The position numbers and the translations under genes are program-made. From Candidatus Latescibacterota bacterium (GTDB lineage Bacteria > Latescibacterota > UBA2968), in NCBI GenBank assembly GCA_965198115.1, contig OZ240241.1:1-64000 (forward strand): DNA of 64,000 nucleotides, read 5' to 3'. Shown piece by piece: positions 3,605 through 64,000 of this stretch (position 1 is the first letter of the stretch; each line of letters begins with the position of its first letter). The notes below the pieces were generated by a model. It saw nothing but the letters and a program-made list of their open reading frames with translations. It did no database searches and had not been told where the DNA came from.

Positions 3605-3605
3605 A

Positions 3606-4811: not shown

Positions 4812-4893
4812 CCCGGCTGAACCAACTAAACCTTGGATACCGCGGTCGGAGGGATCGACCCGGTGTTAGGGAGAGGAATGTGTGGGGAACAGA

Positions 4894-6785: not shown

Positions 6786-6831
6786 TTAAGATATAAAAAT
6801 CGGGCGACAGGCTCCCAGGGGTGGAATTGTT

Positions 6832-9050: not shown

Positions 9051-9069
9051 GTCTGATTCCTCGTCTAGA

Positions 9070-9525: not shown

Positions 9526-9548
9526 ATGTATCGCCCCAGGATTCTTAG

Positions 9549-9982
9549 CCAGGATTTCCGATTTGGCTACTCTGACGGCACCAGGCTACACCACCCTCAC
9601 CTGGCGAAGCACAACCATTTCTCCACCCGGAAGAAGCGGCGGCTGAGGCGGGACCGATCGAGCCCCCTTTCTTGTCCCTCATTGGGGGCTGATCCGCCGC
9701 TACGAAGGCAATTTCGCAGACACCCCTCCGAGCTTCCGTCCTCAGTACACAGATTTCGCATTCGCCAAGTCGCGTGCTACCCGCCCGGCACAGGCAACGC
9801 CCAGATCCGTCCCAGCATGTCGCCGAAGAGCCGCCGGTTCAGATGTCCTTCGGCTAACAAGAGCCAGTAATATCGTGCGTGTTTGAGCAGCCGACCGCCG
9901 GTCTTCATCAACCGGTGCTGCAAGCTCGTCAGTGACCAACTCTTGATTCGCTGCGGCAGACCGAGTCGCCGCCACAGGTTCG
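9549..9982 (-). mobile_element. IS1380 family 3' remnant
   Basis: NLWRRLGLPQRIKSWSLTSLQHRLMKTGGRL closely matches the 5355-6785 copy. End ccaggatttcc at 9549. Confidence 0.8.
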
Positions 9983-10163
9983 GTTTGACGGCTTTCGCTC
10001 TACGCGGCCGGGTCCTGGACGACAAAGTCGCGTCGCACCTGAGCGGGGCTTCCGTAAGCGTACTTCTCCAGCATCCATCGAACACTCTCTCGCAATCAAG
10101 TGTCCAAGAAAACTCCGGGACGCAGGAGTAGGTACTGCAATCAATATCTTGGTCTCGTTTAGA

Positions 10164-39349: not shown

Positions 39350-40996
39350 ATGAATCTGCTCGCAATTAACTTCAATCACGACGGATCTGCTGCTTTGATG
39401 TGCGATGGTGTGATAACCGGGTTTGTCAATACGGAGAGATTTTCGCGAAAGAAAAAGCAACCAGGAATCCGAGAATGTGATATAGATGAATTACTCGGGC
39501 AGGGAGGTATACGTATTGACGAGATTGACGGCGCCTTGATGTGCAACCTGAATAACATGGATTCCCCGGACATCCCTAGGCTGTACGGAACAGATCTCAA
39601 AGAAGAGTGGCTTGGATTCGAAGTGGATCCTGATCAACGACATGTGACGATAAGGGGAAACCGAATCCGCTGTAAAGTGAATCCAGATCACCACTTGCTC
39701 CATTGCGCCCTGGCGTTTTACACGTCACCGTTCGATTCTGCAATGGTCTTCTCATCGGATCCCGTGGGTTGGGCATCTTACGTGGGTAAAGGCCACGAGA
39801 TGAGAGGAGTCCAGAACGTCCCTGGTCAGTTCAACGCGCCAGAGCTTTATAGTAGGGTTGCCGAGTCCCTGTTTGGTACAGGGATTATGGGAGCAGGAAA
39901 GGTAATGGGGCTCGCCCCTTACGGGTTTCGAGAGTTGGATCTGGACTATGCTCAATTATCAGATGTCAGGACTACTATATCGCTTTATCGAGCCTTACGG
40001 AAACTTGGCATAGGCAGGGTGGTAGTCCAGGAAGATGAAAAAGCATATAATGCTAGTCTTGCATACCACACACAGGAGATTCTCGACTTTCAGTTAATCT
40101 CCATCCTCAAAGAGTTACACGAGGTTTCGGTGCAGGAAGGTGTTGATCCGAATCTATGCTTGGGAGGGGGAACGGCTCTCAATTCCGTCGCGAATCAGAA
40201 GGCGTTCAGCCACAGCCCGTTCACAGATCTTTTCTTGCATCCCGCGTGCGGAGATGACGGTACTACACTTGGGGCAGTTCTCTGGCACTGGCATCACGTG
40301 ATGAAGAATCCTAGGAGGAACTACTTAAACACCGACCTTATGTACACGAAAAAATGCTATCGAAGTGATCAGGTAGATGCCGTTCTGTTGTCAGGGAAGT
40401 ATCGAAACCATCTTACTGTCTGGAAGCATCCTGATCCTCTCCCGACGGTTGCTCGGATGATCAGCTCTGGCGCGATTGTAAGTCTGTTCGAGGGAGGAAG
40501 CGAAATTGGACCTCGTGCTCTTGGTCATAGAAGCATAATAGCAGATCCCCGTCGGCTGGGGATGCGGGATCAATTGAACGTAAAGGTAAAACATAGAGAA
40601 GCCTTTCGCCCGTTTGCCCCAGCAGTAATACAAGAACACTCCAGTTCGTGGTTTGATCTAAATTATAGCCCATTCATGTTACGGGTTGCGAATGTATTGA
40701 GGCCCAAAGAAGTCCCATCTATCACACACGTGGATGGCACCGCGCGCATCCAAACGGTCGGCCCTAATGACGATCAACGATTCCGAAAGTTGCTTGAACA
40801 CTTCTACTCAATGACGGGAGTTCCTGTTCTTCTCAATACGTCCTTCAACATTAGAGGTGAACCCATAGTAGAAACGCCTGAGGACGCAATAAGTGCGCTA
40901 CTACGGTCCGAAATGGACTGTGTCGTCTTTAGTGACTGCATCGTGCAAAAGAGAGACGGTGGTGATAAGTCCGCTTCCAGTTGTGTCGCCGATTGA
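39350..40996 (+). CDS. Carbamoyltransferase (NodU/CmcH/TobZ family)
   Basis: HDGSAAL, ERFSRKK, HHLLH, GKVMGLAPYG, GGTALN, GDDG, GPRALGHRSI, KHREAFRPFAP, HVDGTARIQTV, NTSFN. Confidence 0.95.
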   Translation: MNLLAINFNHDGSAALMCDGVITGFVNTERFSRKKKQPGIRECDIDELLGQGGIRIDEIDGALMCNLNNMDSPDIPRLYGTDLKEEWLGFEVDPDQRHVTIRGNRIRCKVNPDHHLLHCALAFYTSPFDSAMVFSSDPVGWASYVGKGHEMRGVQNVPGQFNAPELYSRVAESLFGTGIMGAGKVMGLAPYGFRELDLDYAQLSDVRTTISLYRALRKLGIGRVVVQEDEKAYNASLAYHTQEILDFQLISILKELHEVSVQEGVDPNLCLGGGTALNSVANQKAFSHSPFTDLFLHPACGDDGTTLGAVLWHWHHVMKNPRRNYLNTDLMYTKKCYRSDQVDAVLLSGKYRNHLTVWKHPDPLPTVARMISSGAIVSLFEGGSEIGPRALGHRSIIADPRRLGMRDQLNVKVKHREAFRPFAPAVIQEHSSSWFDLNYSPFMLRVANVLRPKEVPSITHVDGTARIQTVGPNDDQRFRKLLEHFYSMTGVPVLLNTSFNIRGEPIVETPEDAISALLRSEMDCVVFSDCIVQKRDGGDKSASSCVAD

Positions 40997-41059: not shown

Positions 41060-41890
41060 TTAAGTTGAAGTCTCAAGAAGTTCTGGGATCTTAGTAGTTA
41101 GTCGGTCAAGGGGTTTCAAAAGGTTGGAGGCCTTTAGGAATTCAACGAATATAGTTCGGTTCACTGCGTTTACGAAGTTTTCGGTAACAGCCAGACTCGT
41201 TTCTAGATTCCGTACTTGGTGCCACCACAGACTTGGTATATATATGATCTCCCCTGGCAGCTGTTTGCAATAGTAGGGGTTGGCCTTCTCAATCCTCTCT
41301 GGGTTGGTATCGAAAGCGTCAATACATTCCAGTCCGAGGTGTTCAACCTTCCCTGGGGGAAAGATCATCCACTCCTTAGCACCGCTGATTAGCGCCAGCC
41401 ATGCAGCTGTGTGCCACACATCATTGTGAAGGGGGGAGCCTGAGCCGGCTGGACCTAAGAAGATCCATTTCCAGCTAGGTCGTCGGTCTAGTGGGTATAT
41501 GTCTAGCCAATTGCTCAAATAATGCGGAACCGTGTAGTGCTTCAGCAACTCAGGATGTCTCTTCTCAATGCTCCAATTTTTCAGATATAGTGTGCGACTG
41601 TCGGTCCTTTCCTCTATGTAGTCTATGTAATCGGCCACCGGCATTGTGGATGTTTCTTCCACCACGCCCATCCCTTGGGCCCCTGGCTTCTGATCTGTGA
41701 CATTAACAACGAAGCTGCCGAATTTATCCCTTAAGAAGTCAAGGCTCCAGGTCTGCATGGCTTGCCATTGTCCAGCCTCCCCTCGTATGATTGCAGGTTT
41801 CGAGGTATTTCCGAACCTGGCCATGAATTCCCCCGATGATTTTTTACCCTTACCCTCAAGGACCTCAACGGAATTGGGCTCTATCTCCAT
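41060..41890 (-). CDS. JmjC/cupin-like Fe(II)/2-oxoglutarate oxygenase
   Basis: LYLKNW, WIFLGPAGS, HND (HxD), GAKEW, PGEIIYIPSLWWHQV. ATG at 41890 after ggagg. Confidence 0.92.
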   Translation of the reverse strand: MEIEPNSVEVLEGKGKKSSGEFMARFGNTSKPAIIRGEAGQWQAMQTWSLDFLRDKFGSFVVNVTDQKPGAQGMGVVEETSTMPVADYIDYIEERTDSRTLYLKNWSIEKRHPELLKHYTVPHYLSNWLDIYPLDRRPSWKWIFLGPAGSGSPLHNDVWHTAAWLALISGAKEWMIFPPGKVEHLGLECIDAFDTNPERIEKANPYYCKQLPGEIIYIPSLWWHQVRNLETSLAVTENFVNAVNRTIFVEFLKASNLLKPLDRLTTKIPELLETST

Positions 41891-41929
41891 GGTTACCTCC
41901 AATTCAGGGGCATTCACACCTTGCCCGGA

Positions 41930-46345: not shown

Positions 46346-48727
46346 ATGATTAAAACATACTTTGCGCTGTGGATCCGAAACATTCGCAGGGACAGTCTGC
46401 AATCAGCAGTGAATATCTTCGGCTTATCGCTAGGAATGGCCTGCTGTATTCTGATTTTGTTGTACGTTCAGAGTGAGTCGAGCTACGATCAAAGTCACCA
46501 TAGTGGGGATAGGATTTTTCGTCTTGCGCAAGAGGTCGAGATTTCGGGAAGGACAAGATCTGTCGCTATTACGACCTATCCTATGGGCGAAGCATTAGTA
46601 GAAGAATACCCTGAGGTTTCAGAAATCGTCAGATTTAGAAAGGACGATGGAAGGACTCTTGTGGAGATCGGGAAAGACCGGTTCTTCGAGACAGGCGTAT
46701 TGTTTGTGGAGCCGAATGTCTTTAGAGTCTTCGACTTTCCTTTAGCAAGTGGGGATGCGCATGATGCGCTACGTAACCCGAGTTCCGTGGTCATTGCAGA
46801 ACACAGAGCTAAGAAGTACTTCGGGTCAACGAATGACGCATTGGGGCAGTCCCTAGTTATTGGCGGCGAATCCTACCAGATTTCAGGCGTAGCGGCGGAT
46901 ACGCCCGCGAAGAGCCACATCGAGTTTAATTTTCTGATTCCACTGTTGGAGGGTCGAGGGTGGTTGGATTTCAGGTACAAGTACTACACCTACATAGTCT
47001 TGGAGACGGAATCTTCGGATAAAGAGCTTAACGCAAAGCTGCCCGAATTCATCGAAAGACATCTTGGCGATCAACTACGAGCGGGGAGAATGGAACTTTC
47101 GCTCTTTCTGCAGAAGGTGACAGATATACATCTTCATTCGAACCTTGAGTACGAGATCAGCGGAAATGGTGACATACGTAGGCTTAGGATTTTTGCGGCT
47201 GTAGCAATCATGGTGCTTCTACTTGCTTGCTTCAACTATGTGAACCTATCAACTGCGCGCGCTGAGAGGCGTTTGAGAGAAATCGGGCTTCGAAAGACCG
47301 TAGGGGGAGGTCGTTCACAAATCTTTGGGCAGCTCCTTGGTGAGTCGTTCTTCCAGGCGTTGCTTGCTATGATGATCTCATTGCTATTGGTTGAGGGGGC
47401 AATTGGGGAATGGGGTGGTCTGCTTGATCTTAGGGTGACCTCTCCTTGGGGAGGGAGCTGGGCTGCGTGGCTAGTACCTCTTGGAGTTGGGCTGTTTTCG
47501 GGAATTCTCTCGGGAAGCTACCCAGCCGTTATCCTATCATCCGTTCGTCCCACCGAGGCTGTACTTGGATCATTTAAGACAAGATCAGCCTTACGCCGCA
47601 TTCTTGTTGTTTTTCAGTTTGTCATCTCTGGAGTCCTCATGATTTGCACTTGTGCGGTGTATAATCAGTGGGAATTCATGCGGACGAAATCTCCAGGATT
47701 TCAAAAGGAGAACATAGTTGTTATCCCTCTGGCAGGTAAAGATGACCGTGTAATTGATCAGTACAAGACAGCCATTCGAGCATACTCGCAGGTGATCAGC
47801 GCATCCGCATCCTCTATGGTTCCGGGTCGCGAGATTGCTAGTGGCCTTTTCCGGTCGTCCTCAGACAAGGAGAAGACCGAGCCACTCATGGTTAACTTGA
47901 TTAACGTCGTAGATCACGAGTTGGTCGATACATACCGCTTCAGCGTTTTAAAAGGGAGAACGATGCGCGACACCGACCAAGGAGTGGTCTTCTTGATCAA
48001 CGAATCTGCTCTGAGGATGTTTGGATGGAGTTCGATCGAAGGTCAGCAGCTGGAACAAGTCTATCCGGCGGGGGATGAGTTGAATGTCGAGGCTGTAGGG
48101 CCAGTGATAGGTGTTGTGGAGGATTTCCACTACCAATCCCTACATCATCTCGTCGAGCCCCTAGTTGTTGCGAATCTCCAGGAATGGGTCCAGTACCTCT
48201 CGATTCGAATTACAGGAGATGAGTTTGGGCGTACGCTGGTTTACCTTAGCGACCAGTGGCGCACCATCTCGCCTGAAACTCCATTTGAGTATTTTCTTCT
48301 TGATGCCGATCTGGAAAAACTATACCTCAAGGAGGAACGACAGAGCGCTATGCTCGGTGCATTCGCGGCAATTGCCATCATGTTGGCTGGCATGGGAATG
48401 TTCGGCCTAGTGTCGCAAACGACTCGACAGAGGATCAGGGAAATCGGAATGCGCAAGGTGCTTGGCGCGAAAAACTGGCAGTGCGCAACAGTCCTGCTTG
48501 GAAGACTCCTGCTGCTCTTGGGGATTTCGAACGTGATCGCATTGCCCATAGCATACATCGCATTCCGCCAATGGGTGCGTGATTTTCCATATCAGACGGA
48601 GATAGGTTCTCTCCCGTTCCTCATTGCGGCGGGTATGACTCTTCTAACCACGGTCGTCGCGATAGCCCACGAAATAAGCATTACCGCCCGAACAAGCCCG
48701 ATTGCAGTATTGCGGCGGGCCGATTGA
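46346..48727 (+). CDS. MacB/FtsX-like ABC transporter permease (duplicated architecture)
   Basis: NIFGLSLGMACCILI, DIHLHS, ACFNYVNLSTAR...REIGLRKTVG, LVVFQF, REIGMRKVLGA. Confidence 0.92.
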   Translation: MIKTYFALWIRNIRRDSLQSAVNIFGLSLGMACCILILLYVQSESSYDQSHHSGDRIFRLAQEVEISGRTRSVAITTYPMGEALVEEYPEVSEIVRFRKDDGRTLVEIGKDRFFETGVLFVEPNVFRVFDFPLASGDAHDALRNPSSVVIAEHRAKKYFGSTNDALGQSLVIGGESYQISGVAADTPAKSHIEFNFLIPLLEGRGWLDFRYKYYTYIVLETESSDKELNAKLPEFIERHLGDQLRAGRMELSLFLQKVTDIHLHSNLEYEISGNGDIRRLRIFAAVAIMVLLLACFNYVNLSTARAERRLREIGLRKTVGGGRSQIFGQLLGESFFQALLAMMISLLLVEGAIGEWGGLLDLRVTSPWGGSWAAWLVPLGVGLFSGILSGSYPAVILSSVRPTEAVLGSFKTRSALRRILVVFQFVISGVLMICTCAVYNQWEFMRTKSPGFQKENIVVIPLAGKDDRVIDQYKTAIRAYSQVISASASSMVPGREIASGLFRSSSDKEKTEPLMVNLINVVDHELVDTYRFSVLKGRTMRDTDQGVVFLINESALRMFGWSSIEGQQLEQVYPAGDELNVEAVGPVIGVVEDFHYQSLHHLVEPLVVANLQEWVQYLSIRITGDEFGRTLVYLSDQWRTISPETPFEYFLLDADLEKLYLKEERQSAMLGAFAAIAIMLAGMGMFGLVSQTTRQRIREIGMRKVLGAKNWQCATVLLGRLLLLLGISNVIALPIAYIAFRQWVRDFPYQTEIGSLPFLIAAGMTLLTTVVAIAHEISITARTSPIAVLRRAD

Positions 48728-50193: not shown

Positions 50194-50266
50194 AGCCCTA
50201 TAAAGAAGTTTGCAAAGTGACAGGCGCACCTTAGATTATAGCTGCATTTGCAATATGAAAATATAT

Positions 50267-51686
50267 GGCTATATTCGGATCTCTCAACTAGATGAAGTGG
50301 GTGAAGGTGCCGTGGTTCCTGGCATGGGGGCGCGGTTAGAGTGTGCGGAACCTCTTCGGAATCTGCTCAGGGATGTTTATGTCTCCGACGGTAAGGAAGA
50401 TCATATCGTTGAATGCGTCGAGTGTGCGGAATCCGCTGGCTCGGTTCTTGACGATTTGGACGATTCGGTTGAGGCCTTCGGCGATGGCGTTGGTAAGACG
50501 CGTGTTCACGAATGCGAGGACGCCGAAGAAGTGCTGTCGCAGGGTCCTGACGAACTTTCGCAGGGGTTCAAGTCGACTTCTGAGTGCGGACGTCGTCCAG
50601 CATTTCAGGAAGCGTTCGGCAGCCCAGGGCGCTTTGTATTCCCAGAACTGCTCGAACTCGTCCTTGAGTCTCCAGGCTCTATAGATTCGGTAGTTCGCCT
50701 TCTCCAGTGCTTCGAGTGTCCGAGTATCCCCTCTGGAGCGTGTCGCTGAGTGCCGGTAGAGGAGCCATCGGAGGCCCTTCATGGCTTTGCGCTCATCCGG
50801 GGCAGCTTTACGCCACTGGTCCTTACGGACCTCGTCAACGGCGGCATTGAGAGCCTTGACGATGTGAAAGCGATCGAGGACCAGCTTGGCATTCGGACAG
50901 TGTTCCTGGATGGCTCCGATGTAAGCTTCGCTCATGTCGCAGCAGGCCCACTCGATCTTGGATCTCCGGTAGGGACTGAGAGCCTCTGTGAAGAACCGAT
51001 CGATCGTTTTACGCGCCCTGCCGCGGCCAACCCACACCACGCAGGAGCGGTCCAGATCGTAAACGAGCGTGGCGTACCTGTGACGCTTGGCGTAGGAGAT
51101 CTCGTCGATCCCGATGGTTTTGAGCCCTCGGATACGATGACCTTCACGAAGCCGTGTGATGGATCGGTGAAGGAGATCCGACAGCGTCGAGGCAGAGATG
51201 CGCAGTAACTCGGACGCCGCCTTCTGCGTCATGGTCTGGCAGTAGCGCAGCATGGCATACTCGAAGCGATACGTCACCCGAGAGAACCGCTCCGCCCACG
51301 GAATCTCCTCGACCACACGACCGTGGGTAGGACACCGAATCTCCCGAGGATGGTAGAGAAGCCAGACCCTCCACCCGCACACCGGAATGTCACGCCACCG
51401 ACGCGGATGGGGCATTGTGCGGACGATTTTACCTCGACGGCCGCACTCCGGACAACAACAACCATTCTTATGTGGCTTTACGGCGATGACGAAACAGCTT
51501 CTCCCCTCAAACCACCAGCTGACAACACGGAACCCCTTGAATCTCAGCAGTTTCGATAGTAATCTGCTCCCGGTCATAGGTCGCACCCCCTTCGCTTTGA
51601 TTGTCCTACACACACAACCAAGCGTAGGGAACGATCTATGACCTTGTCATTCTATAGTTTCACCGTTGAGAAACCCGGATAGAGCC
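50267..51686 (-). mobile_element. ISL3 copy, intact transposase
   Basis: TSD aaatatat. Confidence 0.95.
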
Positions 51687-51801
51687 AAATATATGTACCC
51701 TCCTTGTATCATTCGGTTGAAGGAGTAGATAGCAGAGCCGTACTTCCGTCCTGATCGAGCGGGGAGCTGTTTCACTCATTTCGTATCAAGGAGAGACCGG
51801 T

Positions 51802-51945
51802 ATGAAAGTGCTCAAGAAGCCAGTAGTGGCGCCCAGTGAGCAGGAGCTGCTCTACGAGGCGCTGGATTGCACCGAGGAGTGCTGTAGAGGCGGATGTCGG
51901 GTCAGAATCTTCGACACCGATGATACAGACGACATCCTCTTCTAA
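51802..51945 (+). CDS. Putative RiPP precursor peptide, 47 aa: MKVLKKPVVAPSEQELLYEALDCTEECCRGGCRVRIFDTDDTDDILF
   Basis: Hand-translated; below the ORF-track cut-off. RBS aaggag at 51788-51793. Leader-like N-terminus, Cys cluster, and position directly upstream of the rSAM/SPASM gene. Confidence 0.85.
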   Translation: MKVLKKPVVAPSEQELLYEALDCTEECCRGGCRVRIFDTDDTDDILF

Positions 51946-52103
51946 AGAACGGCAGTCAAGTTAGGAGTGCCTGAAGTTAGGAGACTCGTAAGCTCTAAAG
52001 TTGTAGGCCACAAAGCGGATCTCCTGATTAGGACAGAATCACCAAGATCTCCAGTATGGGATCAACTGTAGTGAATTAGCTGTTCTCGTCTCATGGGCAG
52101 AAT

Positions 52104-52124
52104 GCGACCTAAGCATGAGGTCGC
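52104..52124 (+). terminator. Hairpin between precursor and maturase (possible attenuator or mRNA stabiliser)
   Basis: gcgacct-aagcatg-aggtcgc; the U-tract is weak. Confidence 0.3.
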
Positions 52125-52240
52125 TTCGTGTGAGGGTCATCCGTGCGGCGTAAGAACTCAGACGAATCTCCACTCTTGAAATGAGAGTAGTTCCCCGTTC
52201 GATCAGGACAATCAAATCAGTCGTGTAGGAGGACTCTACG

Positions 52241-53743
52241 ATGAAATGCAGTGTGTACAACCTCATTATAGACCTTGGAGAAGACGATCGATACTTGCTC
52301 TTTAATACGCTTTCGGGAGCGCTGATTGAAGCAGAAGCCGATGTAGCACATATGCTAAAGAGACATATTGAGCCGACCCCAACTCCGAGATTGCAGCAGA
52401 CCTTTTCAGAAAACAAACCAATTCCTGAAAATGCTATCGCAGGCATTGACGAAGAACGTAGAGGGGTTTTGTCAGACTGTGGATTCTTGGTAGAAGACCA
52501 GAAGGATGAAGTCGCTGAAGTGAGGGAACTGGATGTCACCCGATTTGCGGCTAATCGAGATGCTGATCGGGGAACACTCTCGCTCACGATCCTGCCCAGT
52601 ATTCGATGTAATTTCGAGTGCTTCTATTGCTTTGAACCGTTGTCCCTAAGGCAGCAAGATAGTTCGATGACTGAGGAGGTTCAGGACAAGCTATGTACAT
52701 ACGTTGCGGAGAAGCTTCCGCTGCCAGAAATCAGAAAACTTAGCACAACGTGGTACGGTGGAGAACCTCTTCTCTACCCTCAGATCGTCGATTCTCTGCA
52801 GCGACGGATGAACGCGATTGCGGATGCGGAAGGCGTAAATGTGAAGAGCTCCATCGTCACGAACGGGTTTCTCTTGAGCCGAGATAACAGCGATATGCTT
52901 GTGGAGAACGGCATCACGACCGCCCAGGTAACACTCGACGGCCCTGCCAAAATTCACAATAAGAGGCGGCTGTACACACCAGATAGAAACGCGAACTACG
53001 ACACAATCCTTACCAATCTCGCTAATGCAAACCCCGAGATGGATGTCATCATCCGCGTCAATGTCGGATCACACAATTCTGAGACAATAGAAGAATTGGT
53101 AAACGATCTCACCGAAGCTCGAATCTGGCCTTACCGACGGGGAATCGGTGTCTACTTGGCTCCCGTAACTGGAGGTAAAGACTCACTACCTCGAGGGGAA
53201 TATCTATCCCTTGAAGATGATTTCCGACTGGATATGGTCCGCAAATTCAACGAGTTGACCGATGGACCTAGAGCGAAGCTCGAGTTCAAACTTCCTTCGC
53301 TCACTAACATTTCTCAATGCGGTCACATAGTGGACGAAAAACACATCTGGGTGGTTGATCGTGTGGGGGATGTTTTCCGGTGCTGGGATGTTCCTGGCCA
53401 GGAGAGTCATTGTGTTGGCACGTTGGATGACCTGATTCACGATAGGATCAACGGGCTCAATCGTTGGGTCATGAATCCAGAAATACGTGAGGAGACGGGA
53501 TGCTATAAGTGCAAGATGGCCCCAGTATGTACTGTCCCCTGTCCCTCGCATTACTTCTCTGAATGGAAATCTGGCGAGTATCTCGGAAAATACGACGACG
53601 GAAATCCTTTTTGCTGCGATTGGAAATTCGGGATCGAGAACAGGCTAGCTTCCGAGTACAAGTTCTACTCTGAGTCTCCTGAGTTGGTCTATGGGTTTCC
53701 AGGTGAAGGTAGCACGGAGAACTTACTCCAGATTGCTGACTAA
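52241..53743 (+). CDS. Radical SAM/SPASM domain peptide maturase
   Basis: CNFECFYC, WYGGEPLL, VTNG, QVTLDG; SPASM C...GDVFRC...CYKCKMAPVCTVPCP...C. N-terminal extension resembles an RRE. RBS aggagg. Confidence 0.93.
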   Translation: MKCSVYNLIIDLGEDDRYLLFNTLSGALIEAEADVAHMLKRHIEPTPTPRLQQTFSENKPIPENAIAGIDEERRGVLSDCGFLVEDQKDEVAEVRELDVTRFAANRDADRGTLSLTILPSIRCNFECFYCFEPLSLRQQDSSMTEEVQDKLCTYVAEKLPLPEIRKLSTTWYGGEPLLYPQIVDSLQRRMNAIADAEGVNVKSSIVTNGFLLSRDNSDMLVENGITTAQVTLDGPAKIHNKRRLYTPDRNANYDTILTNLANANPEMDVIIRVNVGSHNSETIEELVNDLTEARIWPYRRGIGVYLAPVTGGKDSLPRGEYLSLEDDFRLDMVRKFNELTDGPRAKLEFKLPSLTNISQCGHIVDEKHIWVVDRVGDVFRCWDVPGQESHCVGTLDDLIHDRINGLNRWVMNPEIREETGCYKCKMAPVCTVPCPSHYFSEWKSGEYLGKYDDGNPFCCDWKFGIENRLASEYKFYSESPELVYGFPGEGSTENLLQIAD

Positions 53744-53807
53744 GGCTGAACTGATTTCGGACTTTATGAAGCTTCTGACGCCGATCTCTTTTCTGGGAAG
53801 CTGCGAA

Positions 53808-55679
53808 ATGAAATTGCTGGGTCTGAGGTTTGTGCTTGTAGTATGGATCACTACTGCTTGCACATACGACGTTACCGCAGCAGAACCGTACGACCTAAGC
53901 TACAGCGTATTCGCCCAGGACTCCGTGCTGTACAGATGGAACACGTCGGAAGGAGTGGTAGATGGTATGCTGGTCCGCCACAGATTCCCTCCCTTGGAAC
54001 TCTGGGAGACATACCTATCGGAGGGGCTAGAAGCTCAGGAATACACGGAGAACGTGGTCTTCGCCTCGCGGGATTCCTCTGTTTATGGATGTGGCTTTGG
54101 AATAGACTATCCAGTCCTCATACCCCGGAACGTACATCCGTACCTGACGGCACGCATATACGCTGATGGGCTTGGGCCCATTAAAGTCTGGATCCAGCTC
54201 CAGAACGATTGGATTTCCGTTCCCAAGGTAATCTCCGCCAAGGGCTACGACAAGATTGAGATAGGCCTAGGTAAACTGATAGGTTCTAGTAGGAAAATTT
54301 CCGGCGTGAAGATGATCGCTGAACGAAGGAGCTTGAATGGCAGACTCATCGTTGGGGCTGTTCAGGTGACGACGAGGAGATTCCTAAAATGGCGATTTGG
54401 GGATAGGAGACCCGTTCCTATCAGGGCCCCATTGGGTGGCAGAGGCCCATTCGAAAGCTGGCCTCAGTGGGTGGGGTCTTTCGGTGATGGACCGGCGTTG
54501 AGATTTGGTGGTGGAACTGTCCCGGCGATGGCCAACCTGATGTCTGATCTGTTAAGAAAGTATTCTCGATACAGCATGAAGGACGTTAGTGTGAGCCAGG
54601 TGCTACGCCAACACGAGCAGCTTCTGCGTCCAGATATTGGGATCATAGAGTATTTAGATGGGCTGGAAGAGATCCTCGTACCACTCGGTGATACTCATTT
54701 TCGAGTTAATAGACCGACCTACAGACACAGTACAACTCAACTCAATGATGTTGTGAAGTTCTATAGAATTGACGGACGTGTTATCGTTTCCGCTGTCTTC
54801 AGTCCTCGTCTTCAAAAGGTGATCTCGGAAGGCGACGAAGTCACTGCCGTTGACGAAATGCCCATTGAGGATCACATAACGACAAGAACTATGTCCCTGG
54901 CAGGATCTACGGATTGGATCCGGGACCGGATCGTGATCGAGCGGCTGCTGACCAAGGAGGACTCTGTCGCAACTACAAGGGTCACCTTTCGGCGACCAGA
55001 TGGACAAGAGTATTCGATTGAACACCATACGAGCGATAGTCTGATGAGAGTCATCCCAAAGAATTTTCTAAAGGGAAGGTTCCACTACAAAGAGTTGGGA
55101 GAGTTCGCATACATACGTATAGGCACCTGGAGCGAAAAGACCTGGCCGTTCTTCTACTCCTACATTGACCGACTGAAAGAGAGCAAGGGGCTAATTCTTG
55201 ATCTGCGGAGTAATGGTGGAGGAGACCTTTCCTTCTGTAGAATCGCTTCGTGCTTTGTAGACAAGCCATCAGTGATTTTCTCCGTTTGCAACATCGAAGG
55301 TGAGGGGGTCGAATCCATTCTTTTAAGACCAGATCCCTTCTTCTTCTATCGTGGCCCGGTTGCTGTCCTAGTGGATACAAGAACCGGCTGTGCTTCAGAG
55401 TTATTCGTGAGTGCGATCAAAAGGTATCACAAGGACACCATAGTAGTCGGTCAGAGCCCGACAAGTGGCGCAGTCGGTTTCATCAGAACGATATCGCTTC
55501 CGGGAGGGAACGAGATCACCTTTCCTGAACCCGTTTTGGACGCCTACAGTCGTGATCTCGAAGGAGTTGGTGTACAACCAGATATGAAAGCCAGCTTCGA
55601 ATCATACCGGGACCTTGCACCTTATGACGATTCGCTTCTCGATCTTGCTATAGAGGCTCTTGCTCATCGTGCTATGTGA
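53808..55679 (+). CDS. S41-family peptidase-like secreted protein with a PDZ-like domain
   Basis: Signal-like N-terminus, GDTH, GDEVTAVD, YIRI, LILDLRSNGGG, TGCASE, EGVGVQPD. Start at 53808 or 53766. Confidence 0.85.
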   Translation: MKLLGLRFVLVVWITTACTYDVTAAEPYDLSYSVFAQDSVLYRWNTSEGVVDGMLVRHRFPPLELWETYLSEGLEAQEYTENVVFASRDSSVYGCGFGIDYPVLIPRNVHPYLTARIYADGLGPIKVWIQLQNDWISVPKVISAKGYDKIEIGLGKLIGSSRKISGVKMIAERRSLNGRLIVGAVQVTTRRFLKWRFGDRRPVPIRAPLGGRGPFESWPQWVGSFGDGPALRFGGGTVPAMANLMSDLLRKYSRYSMKDVSVSQVLRQHEQLLRPDIGIIEYLDGLEEILVPLGDTHFRVNRPTYRHSTTQLNDVVKFYRIDGRVIVSAVFSPRLQKVISEGDEVTAVDEMPIEDHITTRTMSLAGSTDWIRDRIVIERLLTKEDSVATTRVTFRRPDGQEYSIEHHTSDSLMRVIPKNFLKGRFHYKELGEFAYIRIGTWSEKTWPFFYSYIDRLKESKGLILDLRSNGGGDLSFCRIASCFVDKPSVIFSVCNIEGEGVESILLRPDPFFFYRGPVAVLVDTRTGCASELFVSAIKRYHKDTIVVGQSPTSGAVGFIRTISLPGGNEITFPEPVLDAYSRDLEGVGVQPDMKASFESYRDLAPYDDSLLDLAIEALAHRAM

Positions 55680-55736
55680 CATCGGGAAGTTAAGGGTTAC
55701 ACATAGTGAAAATCTCGGAGTCGAAGGGACCGGCAC

Positions 55737-56969
55737 GTGAGGTTTCTGTTTTGCCCTATGGCAACATATGGATTTGTCTATCCGGCCATCGGAATCGCGC
55801 TAGAACTGAGTCGAAGGGGGCATGACGTTGCTTTCGTGACCGATAAGTCGTTCGACCACGTTCTAGCAGGTGAGGGGTTGCGAAGGATTCCAAACGGACG
55901 AAGTGATAGAAGAAGCTTCATTATCGGGGACTGGGGCGAACCTGTCAGTGTCTGTTCTCAGGTTCGTCACATTCGATTCGCACTTGATGAATTTCGACCG
56001 GACGCGTGTGTGTCGTCGATTTTCTGTTTCGGAGCGCTGATAGCCAGGAAGTTATACGACCTACCCACGGCGGTGATAGGGCTTTGTACCTATATGTTTG
56101 CCCACCCGGATGACCTCAGGACCCAAAGCGAGATTACTCCCTCTACGCGATCACTACAGCTCTCTGATGGATTCAGAGAAACCTACAATACTACCGGTCG
56201 CCTGTTTAAGATACCGGAAATGGGGTTGTGCGAATTTATTGAAGAGATGCCGGTACTTGGAGACCTGTTTCTGCTTCAGAATCTTGATGATCTCATCGAA
56301 GATTCAGATAGGTTGCCGGGACGAGTGCATCTAGTAGGACCGTGTGGCTGGGATTCGCCAACCACAGATTCGGAGCTTGTCGACTGGATCAGGCAAGGAC
56401 CGGCAGCGGGAGATCCGATTATCTACGCGCAGCCGGGGGCACTCTTCGGGGCAAATTCGTTCTGGCCGGTCCTGACCAAGGCGCTGGAAGACGAAAGTGT
56501 GAGAGTAGTGGCCTCGGTTGGTAGGATGACGGGGAACGGTGATTACTCAAGCCTGCCTTCAAACTACTTCGTACGCGCACACGTGCCCCACCGACTCGTA
56601 CTCCAGGTTGCAGATGGCGTTGTAACAGAGGGGCACACCAGTATAGTTCTCGCAGCACTCTCAGCAGGAGTGCCTTTGATGCTCATTCCTCACGGCGGCG
56701 AGGAGTTTGATTGCGCTGAAATGTGTATCCGCGCGGGTGTCTGTGTCGGGATCAACCATGAGGAGTTGTCTCGTAACAATATGAAGCTGAAGCTGCGTGA
56801 TCTCCTTCAGAGGACTGATATCCGAGAGCGTTCTACGAGGATTAAAACACTCATCCAAAATAACAACGGCCACAGTCGCGCAACAGACTTGATCGAAATT
56901 TTAGGCATGGAAAGGAGACAGATCCTCCGCTCTTCGCTTTCGGCAAAGAATGTGCATTTGTCACCTTAG
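55737..56969 (+). CDS. GT1 (MGT/EryCIII-like) glycosyltransferase
   Basis: G..YP.IGIALELSRRGHDVAFVT, HLVGP, VPH..VL..AD.VVT.G, ALSAGVPL. Confidence 0.88.
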   Translation: MRFLFCPMATYGFVYPAIGIALELSRRGHDVAFVTDKSFDHVLAGEGLRRIPNGRSDRRSFIIGDWGEPVSVCSQVRHIRFALDEFRPDACVSSIFCFGALIARKLYDLPTAVIGLCTYMFAHPDDLRTQSEITPSTRSLQLSDGFRETYNTTGRLFKIPEMGLCEFIEEMPVLGDLFLLQNLDDLIEDSDRLPGRVHLVGPCGWDSPTTDSELVDWIRQGPAAGDPIIYAQPGALFGANSFWPVLTKALEDESVRVVASVGRMTGNGDYSSLPSNYFVRAHVPHRLVLQVADGVVTEGHTSIVLAALSAGVPLMLIPHGGEEFDCAEMCIRAGVCVGINHEELSRNNMKLKLRDLLQRTDIRERSTRIKTLIQNNNGHSRATDLIEILGMERRQILRSSLSAKNVHLSP

Positions 56970-57040
56970 GAGTTGCTACAAAATACTAAACGATATCATT
57001 AGCTGAGAAGCTTGTCAGAGTGGCCCATCACGCGAATGAA

Positions 57041-57065
57041 GCTCGTCACTTATTTCGTGACGAGC
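57041..57065 (+). terminator. 9-bp-stem hairpin downstream of GT1
   Basis: gctcgtcac-ttatttc-gtgacgagc; no clear U-tract. Confidence 0.35.
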
Positions 57066-57093
57066 CCTTAGAGGTTAAGGTATTCAAAATTGA

Positions 57094-58600: not shown

Positions 58601-60319
58601 TTGGAGGAAGATCAGACAGGTCTGATGAAGATGAGGCGAATGGCCGCGGGGGTTTACCCACACGCAATTGGCTTAGGAATCGTCTCAATAGTCGGTGTCT
58701 CGGTTGGGATCGCCAAGCCCGTGGTTTTTTCTAGAGTAATAGACCAGGGGCTTGTCGAAAACGACTGGGATACGACGTTTCGTCTTACGAAGTACCTTGG
58801 TCTAGTAGGTCTCTTTGGACTACTGACATCCTCCATCCACCGGATCCTCGCAAGTTACATTTCGAATAGAATCGTTGAGAATATGAGGAACTGGCTAGTA
58901 GCCAGAGTCTTCGTTCTACAGTATGAACACTTCGTCCAAACTCCCAGAGGGGAAATCCTGGCCACAATCGAGGACGATTGTGCCAACATAAGGGAATTCT
59001 CAGTTTCTACTCTGCAGTCAGCGATGAGAAGCTTCCTTAGCTTTGTCGCGGCCATATGCTATGTCGGGTGGGTGCAATGGAAGATGCTATTGGCTGGAGC
59101 CCTTGCCGTACCATTTATGGCCATCTGCATGAGATTGTTCCGAAGGGTTGTATATGAGTGCGGATCACAAGTGGCTGAAGCAAGAGCTGTGGCTAAGAAC
59201 TCTCTGGTGAATACTGTAGAGAGCATGAGTTCATTAAGGCAATTGGGCTTATCCGATTGGTCGCGTGATGTTATTCGAGGTGATCTTGGGAAGCTTCGGA
59301 GGAGTAGTATCCGTGAGCAAGTATGGGAGAGCCTGACCGAACTGTCCTCGGGTTCTGTCTCATTGTTTAGCTATTTGGTGATTCTGGGATACGGTGGGTT
59401 GCTGGTTTCAACTAATGAGATAGGAATAGGGCATCTACTTGCCTTCCTAACGATGAGGCAAAGTTTTTTTGCGCCATTGGATTTCGTTGATCGTGTCTAC
59501 AAAGGTTACTTCAAGGCCAAACGTTCTCGCGAACGGATTGATTCACTGTCCAGCCAGCCACTCGAGACCGGTTTCCACGGTGGGGATAGCATCCCCGACG
59601 ATTTCCATCCGCATTCCCTATCCATCGAAGACGTATCATTCTCGTTCGGAGACAAGGCTCTGCTATGCTCGGCCAATGCGACATTCACCACAGGGTGGAA
59701 CGAACTAAGAGGACCCAATGGATCAGGCAAGACAACACTCCTAGGAATCATTCTCAAAGTCCGTAACCCTCAACAGGGCCGGATCTTTGTGGACGGTTAC
59801 AATGTTGCGAACTTCAACAACCGCAGCTGGCGAAGCCACATTTCTGTTGTTGCACAGGAGCCCTTCATATTTCAAGGGACACTGAGGGAGAACCTTAGAC
59901 TTTTCGATGAGAACATTGATGACTCTATGATTGATAGCATGCTTGAGCAGGTAGGTCTTCGAAAGTGGTGCGAAGAGAGGGGGCTCGACACAGAACTATC
60001 CCAAGGCGGAAGCGAAATTTCAGGAGGACTTAAGCAACGTTTGGCGATTGCCAGAGCTCTTCTGAGAAGCTCCGCCGTCTACATTTTCGATGAGCCAGTT
60101 TCCCAGGTCGACTTGCTTACGAAAGGAGACTTGCTTCGCGTGATGAAGAGATACACTCGCGGCGCAATTGTGATAGTTATATCCCATAGCGATCTTAGAG
60201 ATGTAGCGGACCGGATCTTTCACGTGAAGGATGGCCGAGTCAAAGGCGAAGAGGTTAAGCCCGAAGCTCTGTGTGAGCTAGATCCGTCGGTGCAAGGCGT
60301 TGTCGGACATCCATCCTAA
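58601..60319 (+). CDS. ABC exporter, fused TMD-ATPase (no C39 peptidase domain)
   Basis: TM helices, GPNGSGKTT, VAQEP, ISGGLKQRLAIARAL, IFDEP, ISH. Confidence 0.92.
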   Translation: MEEDQTGLMKMRRMAAGVYPHAIGLGIVSIVGVSVGIAKPVVFSRVIDQGLVENDWDTTFRLTKYLGLVGLFGLLTSSIHRILASYISNRIVENMRNWLVARVFVLQYEHFVQTPRGEILATIEDDCANIREFSVSTLQSAMRSFLSFVAAICYVGWVQWKMLLAGALAVPFMAICMRLFRRVVYECGSQVAEARAVAKNSLVNTVESMSSLRQLGLSDWSRDVIRGDLGKLRRSSIREQVWESLTELSSGSVSLFSYLVILGYGGLLVSTNEIGIGHLLAFLTMRQSFFAPLDFVDRVYKGYFKAKRSRERIDSLSSQPLETGFHGGDSIPDDFHPHSLSIEDVSFSFGDKALLCSANATFTTGWNELRGPNGSGKTTLLGIILKVRNPQQGRIFVDGYNVANFNNRSWRSHISVVAQEPFIFQGTLRENLRLFDENIDDSMIDSMLEQVGLRKWCEERGLDTELSQGGSEISGGLKQRLAIARALLRSSAVYIFDEPVSQVDLLTKGDLLRVMKRYTRGAIVIVISHSDLRDVADRIFHVKDGRVKGEEVKPEALCELDPSVQGVVGHPS

Positions 60320-60338
60320 AGGAACCGTGGAGGATAGG

Positions 60339-61175
60339 ATGGAAAACACATTAGATGTTGTTAGACGGCCAGACGTTTCGCCGGAAACATACTTGAAACT
60401 ATATGGGAAACCGAACAAACCATTTGTCATTGCGGATGGCGCAGAGGAATGGAAGGCCCGATCAACCTGGAACATGAGATTCTTTGAAGAGCGTTATGGA
60501 GATGTCAGACTGCAGGTGACACGGATAGCGAGAGGGAGAACGGAATCCGCTGGTGTAAAGACCATAGCTGAATACGCAGACTACCTCCGCACTCAGAACC
60601 ATGAAAAGGAGCCACTCTATCTCCGAGATTGGGTCCTGGAAGAGAAGTACCCTGAGCTTCTTTCTCACATCTCCGTGCCTTCCTATCTATGCAACTGGCT
60701 TGACCGTATCCCGATTAGCGGCAGTCGTAGACACTTCTGGCGAGGTTGGAAAGGTTGGATTTTCATCGGCCCAAAAGGAACTGGAACTGAGCTCCATACG
60801 GACGTTGTTAAATCCTCGGCCTGGCTGGCCCTCATAAGTGGACAAAAGGAGTGGGTATTAACCCCACCTAACGAACACGATCCAGCCACGTTTGCTAAAG
60901 TCGACCTGCTAAATCCTGACTATGAAGCCTATCCCTTCCTTCGGAATTCGAAGAGGATCTGCTACACCCAGCGTCCAGGAGAACTATTAGTCGTCCCGAG
61001 TGGATGGTGGCATCAGGTCTGTAACTCTGATGCCACCATCTCTGTTTCTGGGAACTTCATAAATGAATCCAACATACACTTCTTCTGTAAGGACTTGCTT
61101 GAGAACGGATCACTTGCTGAACTCAGAGACTACTCATGCTACATTCCAGAGATAGTCCCCTTTTTAGCATCCTAG
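60339..61175 (+). CDS. JmjC/cupin-like Fe(II)/2-oxoglutarate oxygenase (paralogue of 41060-41890)
   Basis: LYLRDW, WIFIGPKGT, HTD, GQKEW, PGELLVVPSGWWHQV. ATG at 60339 after ggagg. Confidence 0.92.
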   Translation: MENTLDVVRRPDVSPETYLKLYGKPNKPFVIADGAEEWKARSTWNMRFFEERYGDVRLQVTRIARGRTESAGVKTIAEYADYLRTQNHEKEPLYLRDWVLEEKYPELLSHISVPSYLCNWLDRIPISGSRRHFWRGWKGWIFIGPKGTGTELHTDVVKSSAWLALISGQKEWVLTPPNEHDPATFAKVDLLNPDYEAYPFLRNSKRICYTQRPGELLVVPSGWWHQVCNSDATISVSGNFINESNIHFFCKDLLENGSLAELRDYSCYIPEIVPFLAS

Positions 61176-62705: not shown

Positions 62706-64000
62706 GTGAGTGTCAAAGTAGCTGTCATAGACAGTGGGCTGTGCGAGTCCCATCCCAAGTTAAAAGGGGTACGCGTCACGGACCGCGTGTCGGTAGGAAG
62801 CGACGGGATTTCTCGAGGATGTACCAGCGATGTTTGGGGACACGGTACGGCCTGCACGCAGATAATTCACAGTGTTCTGGATAGAGAGCTTCGTAGGAGT
62901 TGTGAGTTCAAGATCGTAAAGGTTTTTGATCGCCAACTGGTGGTTAGTCAGGACATCCTTCTAAAAGCCCTCCTGTGGTGTATGGATTCGGGCGTAGACG
63001 TAATTAGTGTGAGTATCGGCGTTCGGGCGTCCTCGCCTCCCCAAGAGCTTGTGGACCTCTGTCTTGAGGCACATTCGAAAGGCATCATACTAGTAGCGCC
63101 AGACCACAACGAAGGGGATGGCCCATGCTACCCAGCGTCACTTTCGCATGTCTTTGGCGTTACAGGCGGAGTTTTGAGATCACGGCGTGAGTTTGGTGTT
63201 AACGAGGAGAGCGATATTGAGTTCGTTGGTCGGGGAACCAATCAACGTGTGGCGTGGATCAATGACTCCTACATCTTCGACAGCGGGACAAGCTTTGCCT
63301 CTGCGCAACTAGCAGGAATAGTGTGCAATGTAAGAGCGCAGTTTCCAGAATCTGATCCGTCAGAATTGAAAGCACACCTCATGTCAATTGGACTTAGAGG
63401 TGTGCCTATTACCAGCAGGTTTGTCTCTGCCGGAACAGGCACCGGCCGCTGGGCGCCCCAGGGGACAGACACGATTGAAGAGGTGGTCGAGCGGAATTTT
63501 TCACCCAAAAGATTCAGCTGGATGCGACGCGCTGCTCTCTATCCAGTATGTAACAAAGAATTTCACGCGATCGAGCACTTCAGTAGGCAATGCCAGTTTG
63601 AGCTTGTGGAAATTCTGGACTTTCCAAAGGGAGTGATTTCCCACCGAGATATTGAGATCGATGGAAGGAAATACACGAAAAAGTGGCGAGTAAGTGATAT
63701 TGAAAGGTCGTTTGATACCCTCATTGTTGGATATCCATACGAGACGCCCTTTGGCGCTGATCACAAGGCCTATAAAGACATCTTAGACCAGGCCTGGCAT
63801 ACGGAGTGCAACTTCTTTTGTCTTAGCGGCGATGTAGAGAAACAATTGCAAAAGGAAAGGGACAGCCTCGGTAAGGTGTCGTCACAGATTTACTGTCCAA
63901 GGGTTGACACAGCTGACCTTCAACGACTTGCGTGTCTCCAAAGTGAAGGTGAGACAACAAGACCGGTTCTCGCAGTAGTGGGGACAAATGAAAAGCAGGG
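62706..64000 (+). CDS. S8 (subtilisin-like) peptidase fused to a DUF1611-like P-loop region; partial, runs off the right edge
   Basis: Hand translation from GTG 62706 is open to the edge: VAVIDSG, GHGTAC, SGTSFAS (D/H/S triad), then AALYP..NKE...FDTLIVGY...PVLAVVGTNEKQG. Confidence 0.85.
   Translation, partial: MSVKVAVIDSGLCESHPKLKGVRVTDRVSVGSDGISRGCTSDVWGHGTACTQIIHSVLDRELRRSCEFKIVKVFDRQLVVSQDILLKALLWCMDSGVDVISVSIGVRASSPPQELVDLCLEAHSKGIILVAPDHNEGDGPCYPASLSHVFGVTGGVLRSRREFGVNEESDIEFVGRGTNQRVAWINDSYIFDSGTSFASAQLAGIVCNVRAQFPESDPSELKAHLMSIGLRGVPITSRFVSAGTGTGRWAPQGTDTIEEVVERNFSPKRFSWMRRAALYPVCNKEFHAIEHFSRQCQFELVEILDFPKGVISHRDIEIDGRKYTKKWRVSDIERSFDTLIVGYPYETPFGADHKAYKDILDQAWHTECNFFCLSGDVEKQLQKERDSLGKVSSQIYCPRVDTADLQRLACLQSEGETTRPVLAVVGTNEKQ

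What the first reader, a model, noticed from the sequence alone, without database searches (positions are those of the whole stretch)
51802..51945. Unannotated 47-aa precursor with a CxxxCCxxxC core and an acidic DTDDTDDILF tail
Seen: a strong RBS and a three-part design. MKVLKKP...LLYE is leader-like, CTEECCRGGC holds four Cys, and the tail is Asp/Thr-rich and ends in ILF. Inference: the Cys residues are thioether donors for the rSAM, with Asp/Glu/Thr as acceptors. The tail is either a poly-hydroxylation/glycosylation target or a follower recognised by the C-terminal-processing S41 protein, whose family binds hydrophobic C-termini.
Basis: partly seen in the sequence, partly recalled or inferred. 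Interest (0 to 1): 0.85.

Follow-up and report, generated by a model that had tools for sequence, protein, structure and literature searches.

The report
Four-cysteine DDILF-tailed peptide precursor
This tiny gene encodes a 47-residue peptide of a family described in 2025 whose finished product is still unknown; here it has four cysteines instead of two, likely cross-linked by the neighbouring enzyme, and its tail is predicted to be cut off by an unusual protease that has cysteine where its relatives have the catalytic serine.

Summary
The ORF is real and exactly as described. It is a divergent member of a known orphan RiPP family, the DD(I/V)LF (FlmA/OhkA) precursors of PMC12703449. NCBIfam's FlmA model is its only hit, below cut-off. 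The cluster runs past the window's end. It adds an S8 peptidase, an ACP-like gene and a peptide arginase, giving the flm/ohk gene set.

What differs from the published family:
- four-Cys core, two CxxxC back to back;
- a radical SAM enzyme from a separate clade;
- a GT1 glycosyltransferase;
- a host very likely not Bacteroidota (all 57 published precursors are).

Four further tail-bearing clusters were found; two show no arginase. Thioether formation is likely (seven-Cys SPASM as in CteB/PapB), but Asp/Glu/Thr acceptors are unsupported: no PapB-type Cx3D, no conserved acidic offset. The follower idea gains a lead: the S41 carries Cys at the catalytic-Ser position in 7 of 7 aligned homologues, versus Ser in 5 of 5 controls. 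Binding and expression are untested. New variant of a known kind.

The parts
51788..51795 (+). Shine-Dalgarno AAGGAGAG of the precursor
51802..51945 (+). 47-aa DD(I/V)LF-type (FlmA-like) RiPP precursor: leader about 1-22 (K-x-L-x-K-P), core C23-x3-C27-C28-x3-C32 with Arg29/33/35, acidic tail ending DDILF
52241..53743 (+). Radical SAM/SPASM maturase, 500 aa. N-terminal RRE-like 3 strands + 3 helices; C123/127/130; seven SPASM Cys 360, 381, 421, 424, 430, 434, 458. Best family NF052473 FlmE/OhkG, 220 bits against cut-off 500
53808..55679 (+). S41 peptidase, 623 aa (an upstream ATG at 53691 gives 662). Signal-peptide-like N-terminus (by eye). Cys528 at the catalytic-Ser position, invariant D295-x-H297, no catalytic Lys
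55737..56969 (+). GT1 (macrolide/CalG4-like) glycosyltransferase, with Phe where CalG4 has the N-terminal His; not found in the other tail-bearing clusters examined
58601..60319 (+). ABC exporter (membrane + ATPase)
60300..61175 (+). JmjC/Cupin_8 hydroxylase with intact HxD...H
62706..64000 (+). S8 peptidase (QhpE-like) fused to a TIGR04066/DUF1611 domain, cut by the window end (ends at G000:C1 64613). Beyond the window, in G000:C1 coordinates, follow an ACP-like gene (64549-64866, start uncertain), the peptide arginase (64882-65760; PF12640 over cut-off, NF052474 312 bits against 350, three metal motifs present) and a BtrH_N-like gene (68280-69389)
46346..48727 (+). MacB/FtsX ABC permease (the same type stands in the flm and ohk tables), cut off from the precursor by IS elements; probable member
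41060..41917 (-). Second JmjC hydroxylase, 34% identical to the first, same low-GC island; probable member
39350..40996 (+). Carbamoyltransferase on the same low-GC island, 3.7 kb of unique DNA from the precursor; membership uncertain
50249..51708 (-). High-copy insertion sequence (ISL3-type label recalled) ending 93 bases before the precursor ATG, 8-bp target duplication; may have displaced the native promoter
   Evidence: no sigma-70-like site in 51600-52300

Best explanation
The gene encodes the precursor of a four-cysteine variant of the DD(I/V)LF (FlmA/OhkA) RiPP family, whose cysteines are likely cross-linked as thioethers by the adjacent radical SAM enzyme, whose core arginines are likely turned into ornithine by the cluster's arginase, and whose DDILF tail is predicted to be a follower removed by the cysteine-type S41 peptidase. 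Order proposed (all inferred): (1) the rSAM binds the leader through its RRE-like domain; (2) a core Cys binds the open iron of auxiliary cluster 1 and S-C rings form within the CxxxC-CxxxC core, at an unknown acceptor carbon that is probably not a conserved Asp/Glu; (3) the arginase gives ornithine at one or more of Arg29/33/35; (4) JmjC enzymes hydroxylate and the GT1 may glycosylate; (5) the cytoplasmic QhpE-like S8 removes the leader; (6) the ABC transporter exports the peptide; (7) the exported Cys/His S41 recognises the hydrophobic C-terminus and releases a ring-containing core of about 10-15 residues. Shown: the ORF, the gene set, the motifs and the co-occurrence. Not shown: any chemistry, binding or expression.
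For: Family: C-terminal DDILF; the only NCBIfam hit is FlmA. Its C23...C32 spacing (x8) and C-R-V match the FlmA sequences printed in the paper's supplement (compared by eye) and the three L058 precursors (C-x8-C-R). Gene set matches flm/ohk Tables S2-S3: rSAM, arginase, S41, S8, ACP-like, JmjC, ABC, MacB permease. Thioether: seven SPASM Cys conserved in 22 of 22 aligned rSAMs (one position 21 of 22), spaced like CteB and PapB, whose AC1 has three Cys (PMC10177961 passages). Fold hits 1-4 are TigE and CteB. Ornithine: arginase motifs intact; FlmR/OhkR convert core Arg including the C-R sites. Tail-S41 link: all 5 tail-bearing loci seen (window, G132, G109, L058, L069) carry the S41, as do flm and ohk. 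A Bacillus plasmid module with the same S8-DUF1611, ACP, ABC and a KKxLKKP leader has neither tail nor S41 (one locus). Replacing the tail by Ala left FlmR conversion complete and only slowed OhkR, so the tail is not mainly the arginase's tag.
Against: All three family models are below cut-off (FlmA 14.6/30, FlmE/OhkG 220/500, FlmR/OhkR 312/350). Leave-one-out E is only 0.11. No FlmE/OhkG-type rSAM reaction was found in the searched literature. The top fold hit TigE is, as recalled, not a thioether enzyme. The G132 precursor has no Arg although its cluster has an intact arginase, so an arginase does not guarantee a substrate. Tail/S41 co-occurrence rests on few, related clusters. The paper's AF3 models put the tail on the arginase. 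Cys in place of Ser could also mark an inactive binding protein. An IS ends 93 bases upstream and no promoter-like site was found, so the cluster may be silent.
Confidence: 0.6

Rival explanations
1. One reading: Cys links to the beta/gamma carbon of nearby Asp, Glu or Thr (E19, D22, T24, E25, E26), as PapB, QhpD or CteB do.
For: Acidic residues flank C23 and C27 here. Seven-Cys SPASM like CteB/PapB. An S8 + TIGR04066 + ACP-related module also accompanies the CcpM/CLI_3235 cluster of P. polymyxa (PMC10731318 passages). QhpE is the best S8 family.
Against: No Cys here has D/E at +4; across 11 precursors D/E is at +4 in 2 of 38 Cys, and the best offset (-1) has 11 of 38 (rows are not independent). 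C28 and C32 have no acidic neighbour within +-1 or at +4. PapB model score only 106 bits against 340.
Confidence: 0.3
2. Enteropeptin-like chemistry: Cys links to the alpha carbon of the next Arg (C28-R29, C32-R33), giving thiomorpholine rings, and the Arg then becomes ornithine.
For: C-R occurs twice here, in 3 of 3 L058 precursors and in FlmA1-3 (by eye), all in arginase clusters. The enteropeptin route is described in PMC12703449.
Against: OhkA1-2, G132, G109 and 5 of 5 L069 precursors have no C-R. The paper assigns the enteropeptin arginase to another family, and FlmR acts on unmodified precursors. It leaves C23 and C27 unexplained.
Confidence: 0.15
3. The acidic tail stays in the product as the site of hydroxylation and glycosylation, or serves as a docking tag for several maturases; the S41 trims elsewhere or only binds.
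For: Two JmjC genes and a GT1 in the cluster. AF3 models in the paper show the tail contacting both arginases, OhkR is slower without it, and the authors leave core versus follower open.
Against: The tail is kept in G132, G109 and L069, where no JmjC or GT1 hit was found in the stretches examined. Only the last five residues and a 14-19 residue distance from the last Cys are conserved, as expected of a recognition tag.
Confidence: 0.25
4. The cluster is a silent remnant on a horizontally acquired island that is decaying under insertion sequences.
For: Island GC 49-50% against 59.1 +/- 2.4% for the genome; many IS copies, one 93 bases upstream. Not found with this query in the one same-genus genome. 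G058 holds a broken copy with a truncated rSAM and no precursor found.
Against: All core ORFs are full length with intact catalytic motifs, and the insertions between precursor and arginase lie between genes.
Confidence: 0.2

Closest known systems
DD(I/V)LF-type orphan RiPPs: flm (Flagellimonas meridianipacifica) and ohk (Ohtaekwangia koreensis) clusters, PMC12703449; NCBIfam NF052472, NF052473, NF052474
   Same: C-terminal DDILF, K-x-L-x-K-P-like leader, C-x8-C-R spacing, core Arg; rSAM/SPASM, peptide arginase, about 640-aa S41, S8, ACP-like protein, JmjC, ABC exporter, MacB permease.
   Different: Four Cys rather than the two of FlmA1-3 and OhkA1-2; single and shorter precursor (47 against 55-70 aa); rSAM in a separate clade; GT1 inside the operon and a carbamoyltransferase nearby, neither listed in Tables S2-S3; host very likely not Bacteroidota, whereas 57 of 57 listed precursors are.
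Ranthipeptide systems: PapB/freyrasin, CteB/SCIFF, CcpM-CLI_3235
   Same: RRE-like domain + rSAM + seven-Cys SPASM with three-Cys AC1; Cys-rich core; S8, TIGR04066 and ACP-related accessory genes.
   Different: No Cx3D motif; scores far below cut-offs (PapB 106/340, CcpM 63/500, SCIFF maturase 54/425); acidic follower-like tail, S41 and arginase.
S41 peptidases: E. coli Prc/Tsp, H. pylori CtpA, Bacteroides S41 8VCB/4L8K, nisin-resistance protein
   Same: S41 fold; DLRxNGGG and x-A-S-E motifs; D-x-H as in the Bacteroides enzymes.
   Different: Cys at the position of Prc S452 and CtpA S300, and Ala at Prc K477 and CtpA K325; extra N-terminal all-beta domain.
Enteropeptins (thiomorpholine plus ornithine)
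   Same: rSAM, arginase and Cys-Arg dipeptides.
   Different: Different arginase family per PMC12703449; C-R not conserved across the DD(I/V)LF family.

Membership tests
DD(I/V)LF / FlmA precursors | C-terminal DD(I/V)LF motif | tested here: met
DD(I/V)LF / FlmA precursors | [quoted passage not shown] | tested here: met
   G000:64882-65760
DD(I/V)LF / FlmA precursors | Several Arg in the C-terminal half | tested here: met
   R29, R33, R35
DD(I/V)LF / FlmA precursors | Shared flm/ohk gene set (rSAM, S41, S8, cupin/JmjC, ABC) | tested here: met
NCBIfam NF052472 (FlmA, strict model) | Score at or above the curated cut-off of 30 bits | tested here: not met
   14.6 bits, E 0.026, sole hit. Filed as a variant of the published motif-defined type, not as a model member
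DD(I/V)LF / FlmA precursors | Arg-to-ornithine conversion | not testable with these tools
   needs co-expression and MS
FlmE/OhkG rSAM (NF052473) | Score of at least 500 bits, or nesting in the FlmE-like clade | tested here: not met
   220 bits. Lies in a 20-row clade (SH-aLRT 94) apart from the 25-row clade (99) holding G132, G109, L058, L069 and the over-cut-off P0173/P0200 (quick tree; no one-clade test run)
Thioether-forming SPASM maturases (CteB/PapB type) | Seven SPASM Cys, three for AC1 and four for AC2 | tested here: met
Thioether-forming SPASM maturases (CteB/PapB type) | N-terminal RRE | tested here: inconclusive
   model shows 3 strands + 3 helices in residues 7-79 and full-length matches to CteB; no RRE profile hit was obtained
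PapB/freyrasin ranthipeptides | Cx3D/E motifs in the core | tested here: not met
   0 of 4 Cys here; 2 of 38 across the set
Sacti-/ranthipeptides | S-C(alpha) or S-C(beta/gamma) link | not testable with these tools
   needs MS/MS or NMR
S41 Ser/Lys C-terminal processing proteases (CtpA/Prc) | Catalytic Ser and Lys | tested here: not met
   Cys528, and Ala at the Lys position
Peptidase S41 (Pfam PF03572) | Score above gathering threshold and S41 fold | tested here: met
   81.7 bits against 24; fold search

The most novel reading that the evidence does not exclude
DD(I/V)LF clusters are a wider, multi-phylum RiPP class defined not by the arginase but by a dedicated cysteine-nucleophile (Cys/His) S41 peptidase that reads the DD(I/V)LF tail and cuts it off after export. 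That would be a serine-to-cysteine switch in family S41 and would answer the open core-or-follower question. This window encodes a compact double-ring, ornithine-bearing, glycosylated member made by a separately recruited radical SAM lineage with a cross-link that needs no acidic acceptor.
Probability: 0.3. Interest if true: 0.78.

Novelty: new variant of a known kind. Interest (0 to 1): 0.5.

Why it matters
The 2025 paper states that the product of DD(I/V)LF clusters, the cleavage sites and the role of the tail are unknown. This locus and its relatives narrow that down: the tail stays where arginase, JmjC and GT1 are not found, but in all five loci seen it sits beside an S41 with Cys in place of the catalytic Ser. 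That gives a cheap, direct test (S41 wild type against C528A, on precursor with and without tail). A 47-residue single precursor with two back-to-back CxxxC units is a compact substrate for finding the rSAM chemistry. A GT1 acting on a RiPP core would be a useful tailoring enzyme. The family itself is not new.

Tried and rejected
- Homologue search with the peptide returned only itself; short peptides are poorly served by word seeding.
- The genome-contig scan with the single rSAM gave 2 weak loci with no cluster genes.
- No DNA context could be obtained for the six closest rSAMs (P0002-P0007, 46-55% identical). The metagenome scan's best match was 32%. Their link to S41 is inferred only from equal contig lengths in 2 cases (62,741 and 44,679). 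Whether they have four-Cys precursors or a GT1 is open.
An 11-residue frame ending GDILF in L051 was dropped as chance.
- Of the 7 other genomes with rSAM matches, the regions read in G002, G016, G084 (1 of 2 sites) and G087 showed no tail peptide. The weak precursor-profile hit in G091 (E 0.006, partial) showed no tail.
- The arginase had no match in the plasmid collection.
- No RNA holder was listed, which is no evidence on expression. A contig of run X1 spans 51662-57121 without differences, but it may be the source data.
- Complex prediction of S41 with the precursor was not available; nothing was folded, so binding is neither supported nor opposed.
- The 295-base gap after the precursor folds no better than shuffles (z -0.71) and holds no second precursor. 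No promoter or terminator consensus was found.
- No second precursor was found in G000, G132, G109, G058 or G001.
- Literature on a cysteine-type S41: 0 papers in two searches; 'S41' does not occur as a whole word in the RiPP protease review PMC10885120 (passages). PMC10028609 gave no passage for the terms asked. The library lacks most subscription papers, so this does not show it is unpublished.

Full report
Observation. The ORF at 51802-51945 (+) encodes the 47-residue peptide as described, with an AAGGAGAG ribosome site and a 295-base gap to a radical SAM gene. Only 2 of 390,640 stop-ended frames in G000 end in DD[IV]LF, and it is the only one of 867 SD-led 35-75 aa ORFs with such a tail; four Cys alone occurs in 59 of 867. 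It is single-copy in the genome.

What it is. The rSAM's best NCBIfam match is FlmE/OhkG (220 bits, cut-off 500). That led to PMC12703449, of which I read main-text parts 1-4 of 5 and supplement parts 1-5 of 8. The paper defines 'DD(I/V)LF'-type orphan precursors by their C-terminal motif, lists 57, all from Bacteroidetes, shows Arg-to-ornithine conversion by FlmR and OhkR, and leaves the product, the cleavage sites and the role of the tail open. Its reference 15, the first mention of the type, I did not see. The window peptide's only NCBIfam hit is the FlmA model (E 0.026, 14.6 bits, cut-off 30). A search for the arginase family found one at G000:C1 64882-65760, just past the window's end, with all three metal motifs, behind a QhpE-like S8 fused to a TIGR04066/DUF1611 domain (62706-64613) and an ACP-like gene; a BtrH_N-like gene follows at 68280-69389. 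With the S41, ABC exporter, JmjC genes and MacB permease inside the window, this is the flm/ohk gene set. The genes lie on unique DNA of 49-50% GC in a 59% genome, split by high-copy insertion sequences between genes; one ends 93 bases before the precursor. An earlier scan note on this arginase reached the same family (e1-3115043); I saw it after reaching the assignment.

Host. The phylum is represented by 168 genomes in this collection. G000 has no SusC match over cut-off (best 85 against 368 bits) while a control genome does, and no PorP match over cut-off, though no control rang for that family. The host is therefore very likely not Bacteroidota; I did not name it.

Relatives. Among 168 genomes of the phylum, 3 have a full-length arginase match (G000, G132, G058; six more are partial) and 8 have an rSAM match at E 1e-35 or better. 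G132 and G109 have S41-precursor-rSAM-S8 clusters with 52-aa precursors starting MKEL(V/I)KP, carrying two Cx4C units and ending GDILF. G109 had no arginase match (93% complete). G132 has one, but its precursor has no Arg. G058 has a broken copy without a precursor found. Of 80 metagenome rSAM loci, 2 carry S41 and S8: L058, with three two-Cys C-x8-C-R precursors ending DLLF plus arginase and JmjC, and L069, with five precursors holding CxxxC-x5-6-CxxxC and ending D(D/E)IIF, with no arginase on its 11.4-kb contig. So the window's core reads as two CxxxC units with no linker, its outer Cys spaced like FlmA. The alignment of 11 precursors keeps the K-x-L-x-K-P leader, the outer Cys and the terminal Phe, 14-19 residues after the last Cys. 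Profile searches with this alignment recover its own members, which is circular; the leave-one-out test ranks the window's frame first of 159,261 but at E 0.11 only, and sub-profiles miss it.

The radical SAM enzyme. It has an RRE-like N-terminus in the model (mean pLDDT 76), TigE and CteB as top fold matches, and seven SPASM cysteines conserved in 22 of 22 rows (one in 21). They are spaced like CteB's three AC1 and four AC2 ligands (PMC10177961, passages); the same seven-Cys pattern is described for the thioether enzyme CrpC (PMC13692751, passages). Thioether formation is therefore likely but inferred. The acceptor claim fails its test: D/E is at Cys+4 in 2 of 38 cases and at most 11 of 38 at any offset, and the commonest residue at +-4 is Cys (13 of 38; paralogous rows are not independent). 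In a quick ML tree of 66 proteins (54 hand-picked, the window's enzyme, and 11 translated from loci; L061 dropped for an internal stop), the enzyme and five close relatives sit in a 20-row clade (SH-aLRT 94) apart from the 25-row FlmE-like clade (99) that holds G132, G109, L058 and L069; the join of the two is weak (57) and the root is for drawing only. The FlmE-like proteins scanned score 369-700 bits on NF052473, those of this clade 220-257.

The S41. The Cys aligns with the position that is Ser in Prc chain 5WQL and Ala in 8XUD, and with S300 of the H. pylori CtpA S300A/K325A/Q329A mutant; the Lys position holds Ala in the window's protein. The three nearest non-cluster S41s of the phylum have Ser, and both other S41s of G000 have Ser and Lys. 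The N-terminus looks like a signal peptide (by eye; helix 2-19 in a model of mean pLDDT 62), whereas the S8 starts directly with its catalytic domain. A Bacillus plasmid module shares the S8-DUF1611, ACP, ABC and a KKxLKKP leader but has a DUF692 enzyme, no tail and no S41. Hence the inferred division: the leader goes with the S8 module and the tail with the S41. Two paper searches for a cysteine-type S41 found nothing; FlmF and OhkF were not checked.

Tailoring. The GT1 lies inside the operon, resembles CalG4 and YjiC, and has Phe where they have the N-terminal His (that this His is the catalytic base is recalled). It was not found in the other clusters examined nor in Tables S2-S3. Its target is unknown. 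The carbamoyltransferase and a GT9 gene share the island, but their membership is uncertain.

Verdict. Observation confirmed, interpretation partly supported. The peptide works like, and by the published motif-plus-arginase definition belongs to, the DD(I/V)LF type, though it falls below all three NCBIfam cut-offs. It is a new variant: four Cys, separate rSAM clade, GT1, non-Bacteroidota host. Interest 0.5: the family is known, but its product is not, and the Cys-type S41 makes the open question about the tail directly testable. Supplement parts 6-8 and the figures (the sequence logo) were not seen and could bear on how many published precursors have more than two Cys.

Noticed in passing
window 53808-55679; L019 10543-12549; L042 14591-16585; L058 5230-7188; L069 691-2136: S41 peptidases of tail-bearing clusters have Cys at the catalytic-Ser position and no catalytic Lys; nearest outsiders have Ser.
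   Followed up: partly
L019 12603-12761 (G132): Precursor with no arginine in a cluster with an intact peptide arginase; no second precursor found in that genome.
   Followed up: partly
L042 from 14591 and L043 (G109) against L019/L020 (G132): Closely related clusters in two genera, one with and one without an arginase match; G109 has three tandem ABC-2-like permeases and a Cys-every-fifth core.
   Followed up: partly
L069 2185-3219: Five tandem four-Cys precursors (CxxxC-x5-6-CxxxC, N-K-x-C in the second unit, D(D/E)IIF tail) on a 31% GC metagenome contig.
   Followed up: partly
L127 2180-9085 (Bacillus albus plasmid NZ_CP040345.1): RiPP-like cluster with two 44-aa precursors, ACP-like protein, S8-DUF1611, DUF692 enzyme and a BtrH-like-looking gene; the same S8 occurs on 6 Bacillus plasmids. 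Not compared with published clusters.
   Followed up: no
L017/L018 (G058:C2 about 637000-642000): Decayed copy: truncated rSAM behind a JmjC-like fragment, intact S8, ACP and arginase, IS upstream, no precursor or S41 found.
   Followed up: partly
window 55737-56969: GT1 has Phe in place of the N-terminal His of CalG4/YjiC, which may mean a non-hydroxyl acceptor or loss of activity.
   Followed up: partly
window 34434-36383 and 39350-40996: A 649-aa GT9-domain protein and a carbamoyltransferase on the same 49-50% GC island, with 580 unique bases between them.
   Followed up: no
window 27787-62561: Very high IS load: one element gives about 241 matches and others about 87-143 in this 8.4-Mb genome.
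   Followed up: no
L021 (G002:C140) 1721-11016: Another RiPP-like locus with two related rSAM/SPASM genes, an S8 and a 683-aa gene; no tail peptide seen.
   Followed up: no
window 616-11939: Cluster of an ATPase-like gene, a DUF4007-like gene, a cysteine desulfurase, a DGQHR-motif gene and a helicase; resembles a Dnd/defence island (labels recalled from motifs, not searched).
   Followed up: no
window 16700-17736: Ankyrin-like repeat ORF that appears frameshifted (label recalled from the repeat motif).
   Followed up: no
window 51957-51991: Short direct repeat AAGTTAGGAG twice just after the precursor stop; no ORF or significant fold linked to it.
   Followed up: partly
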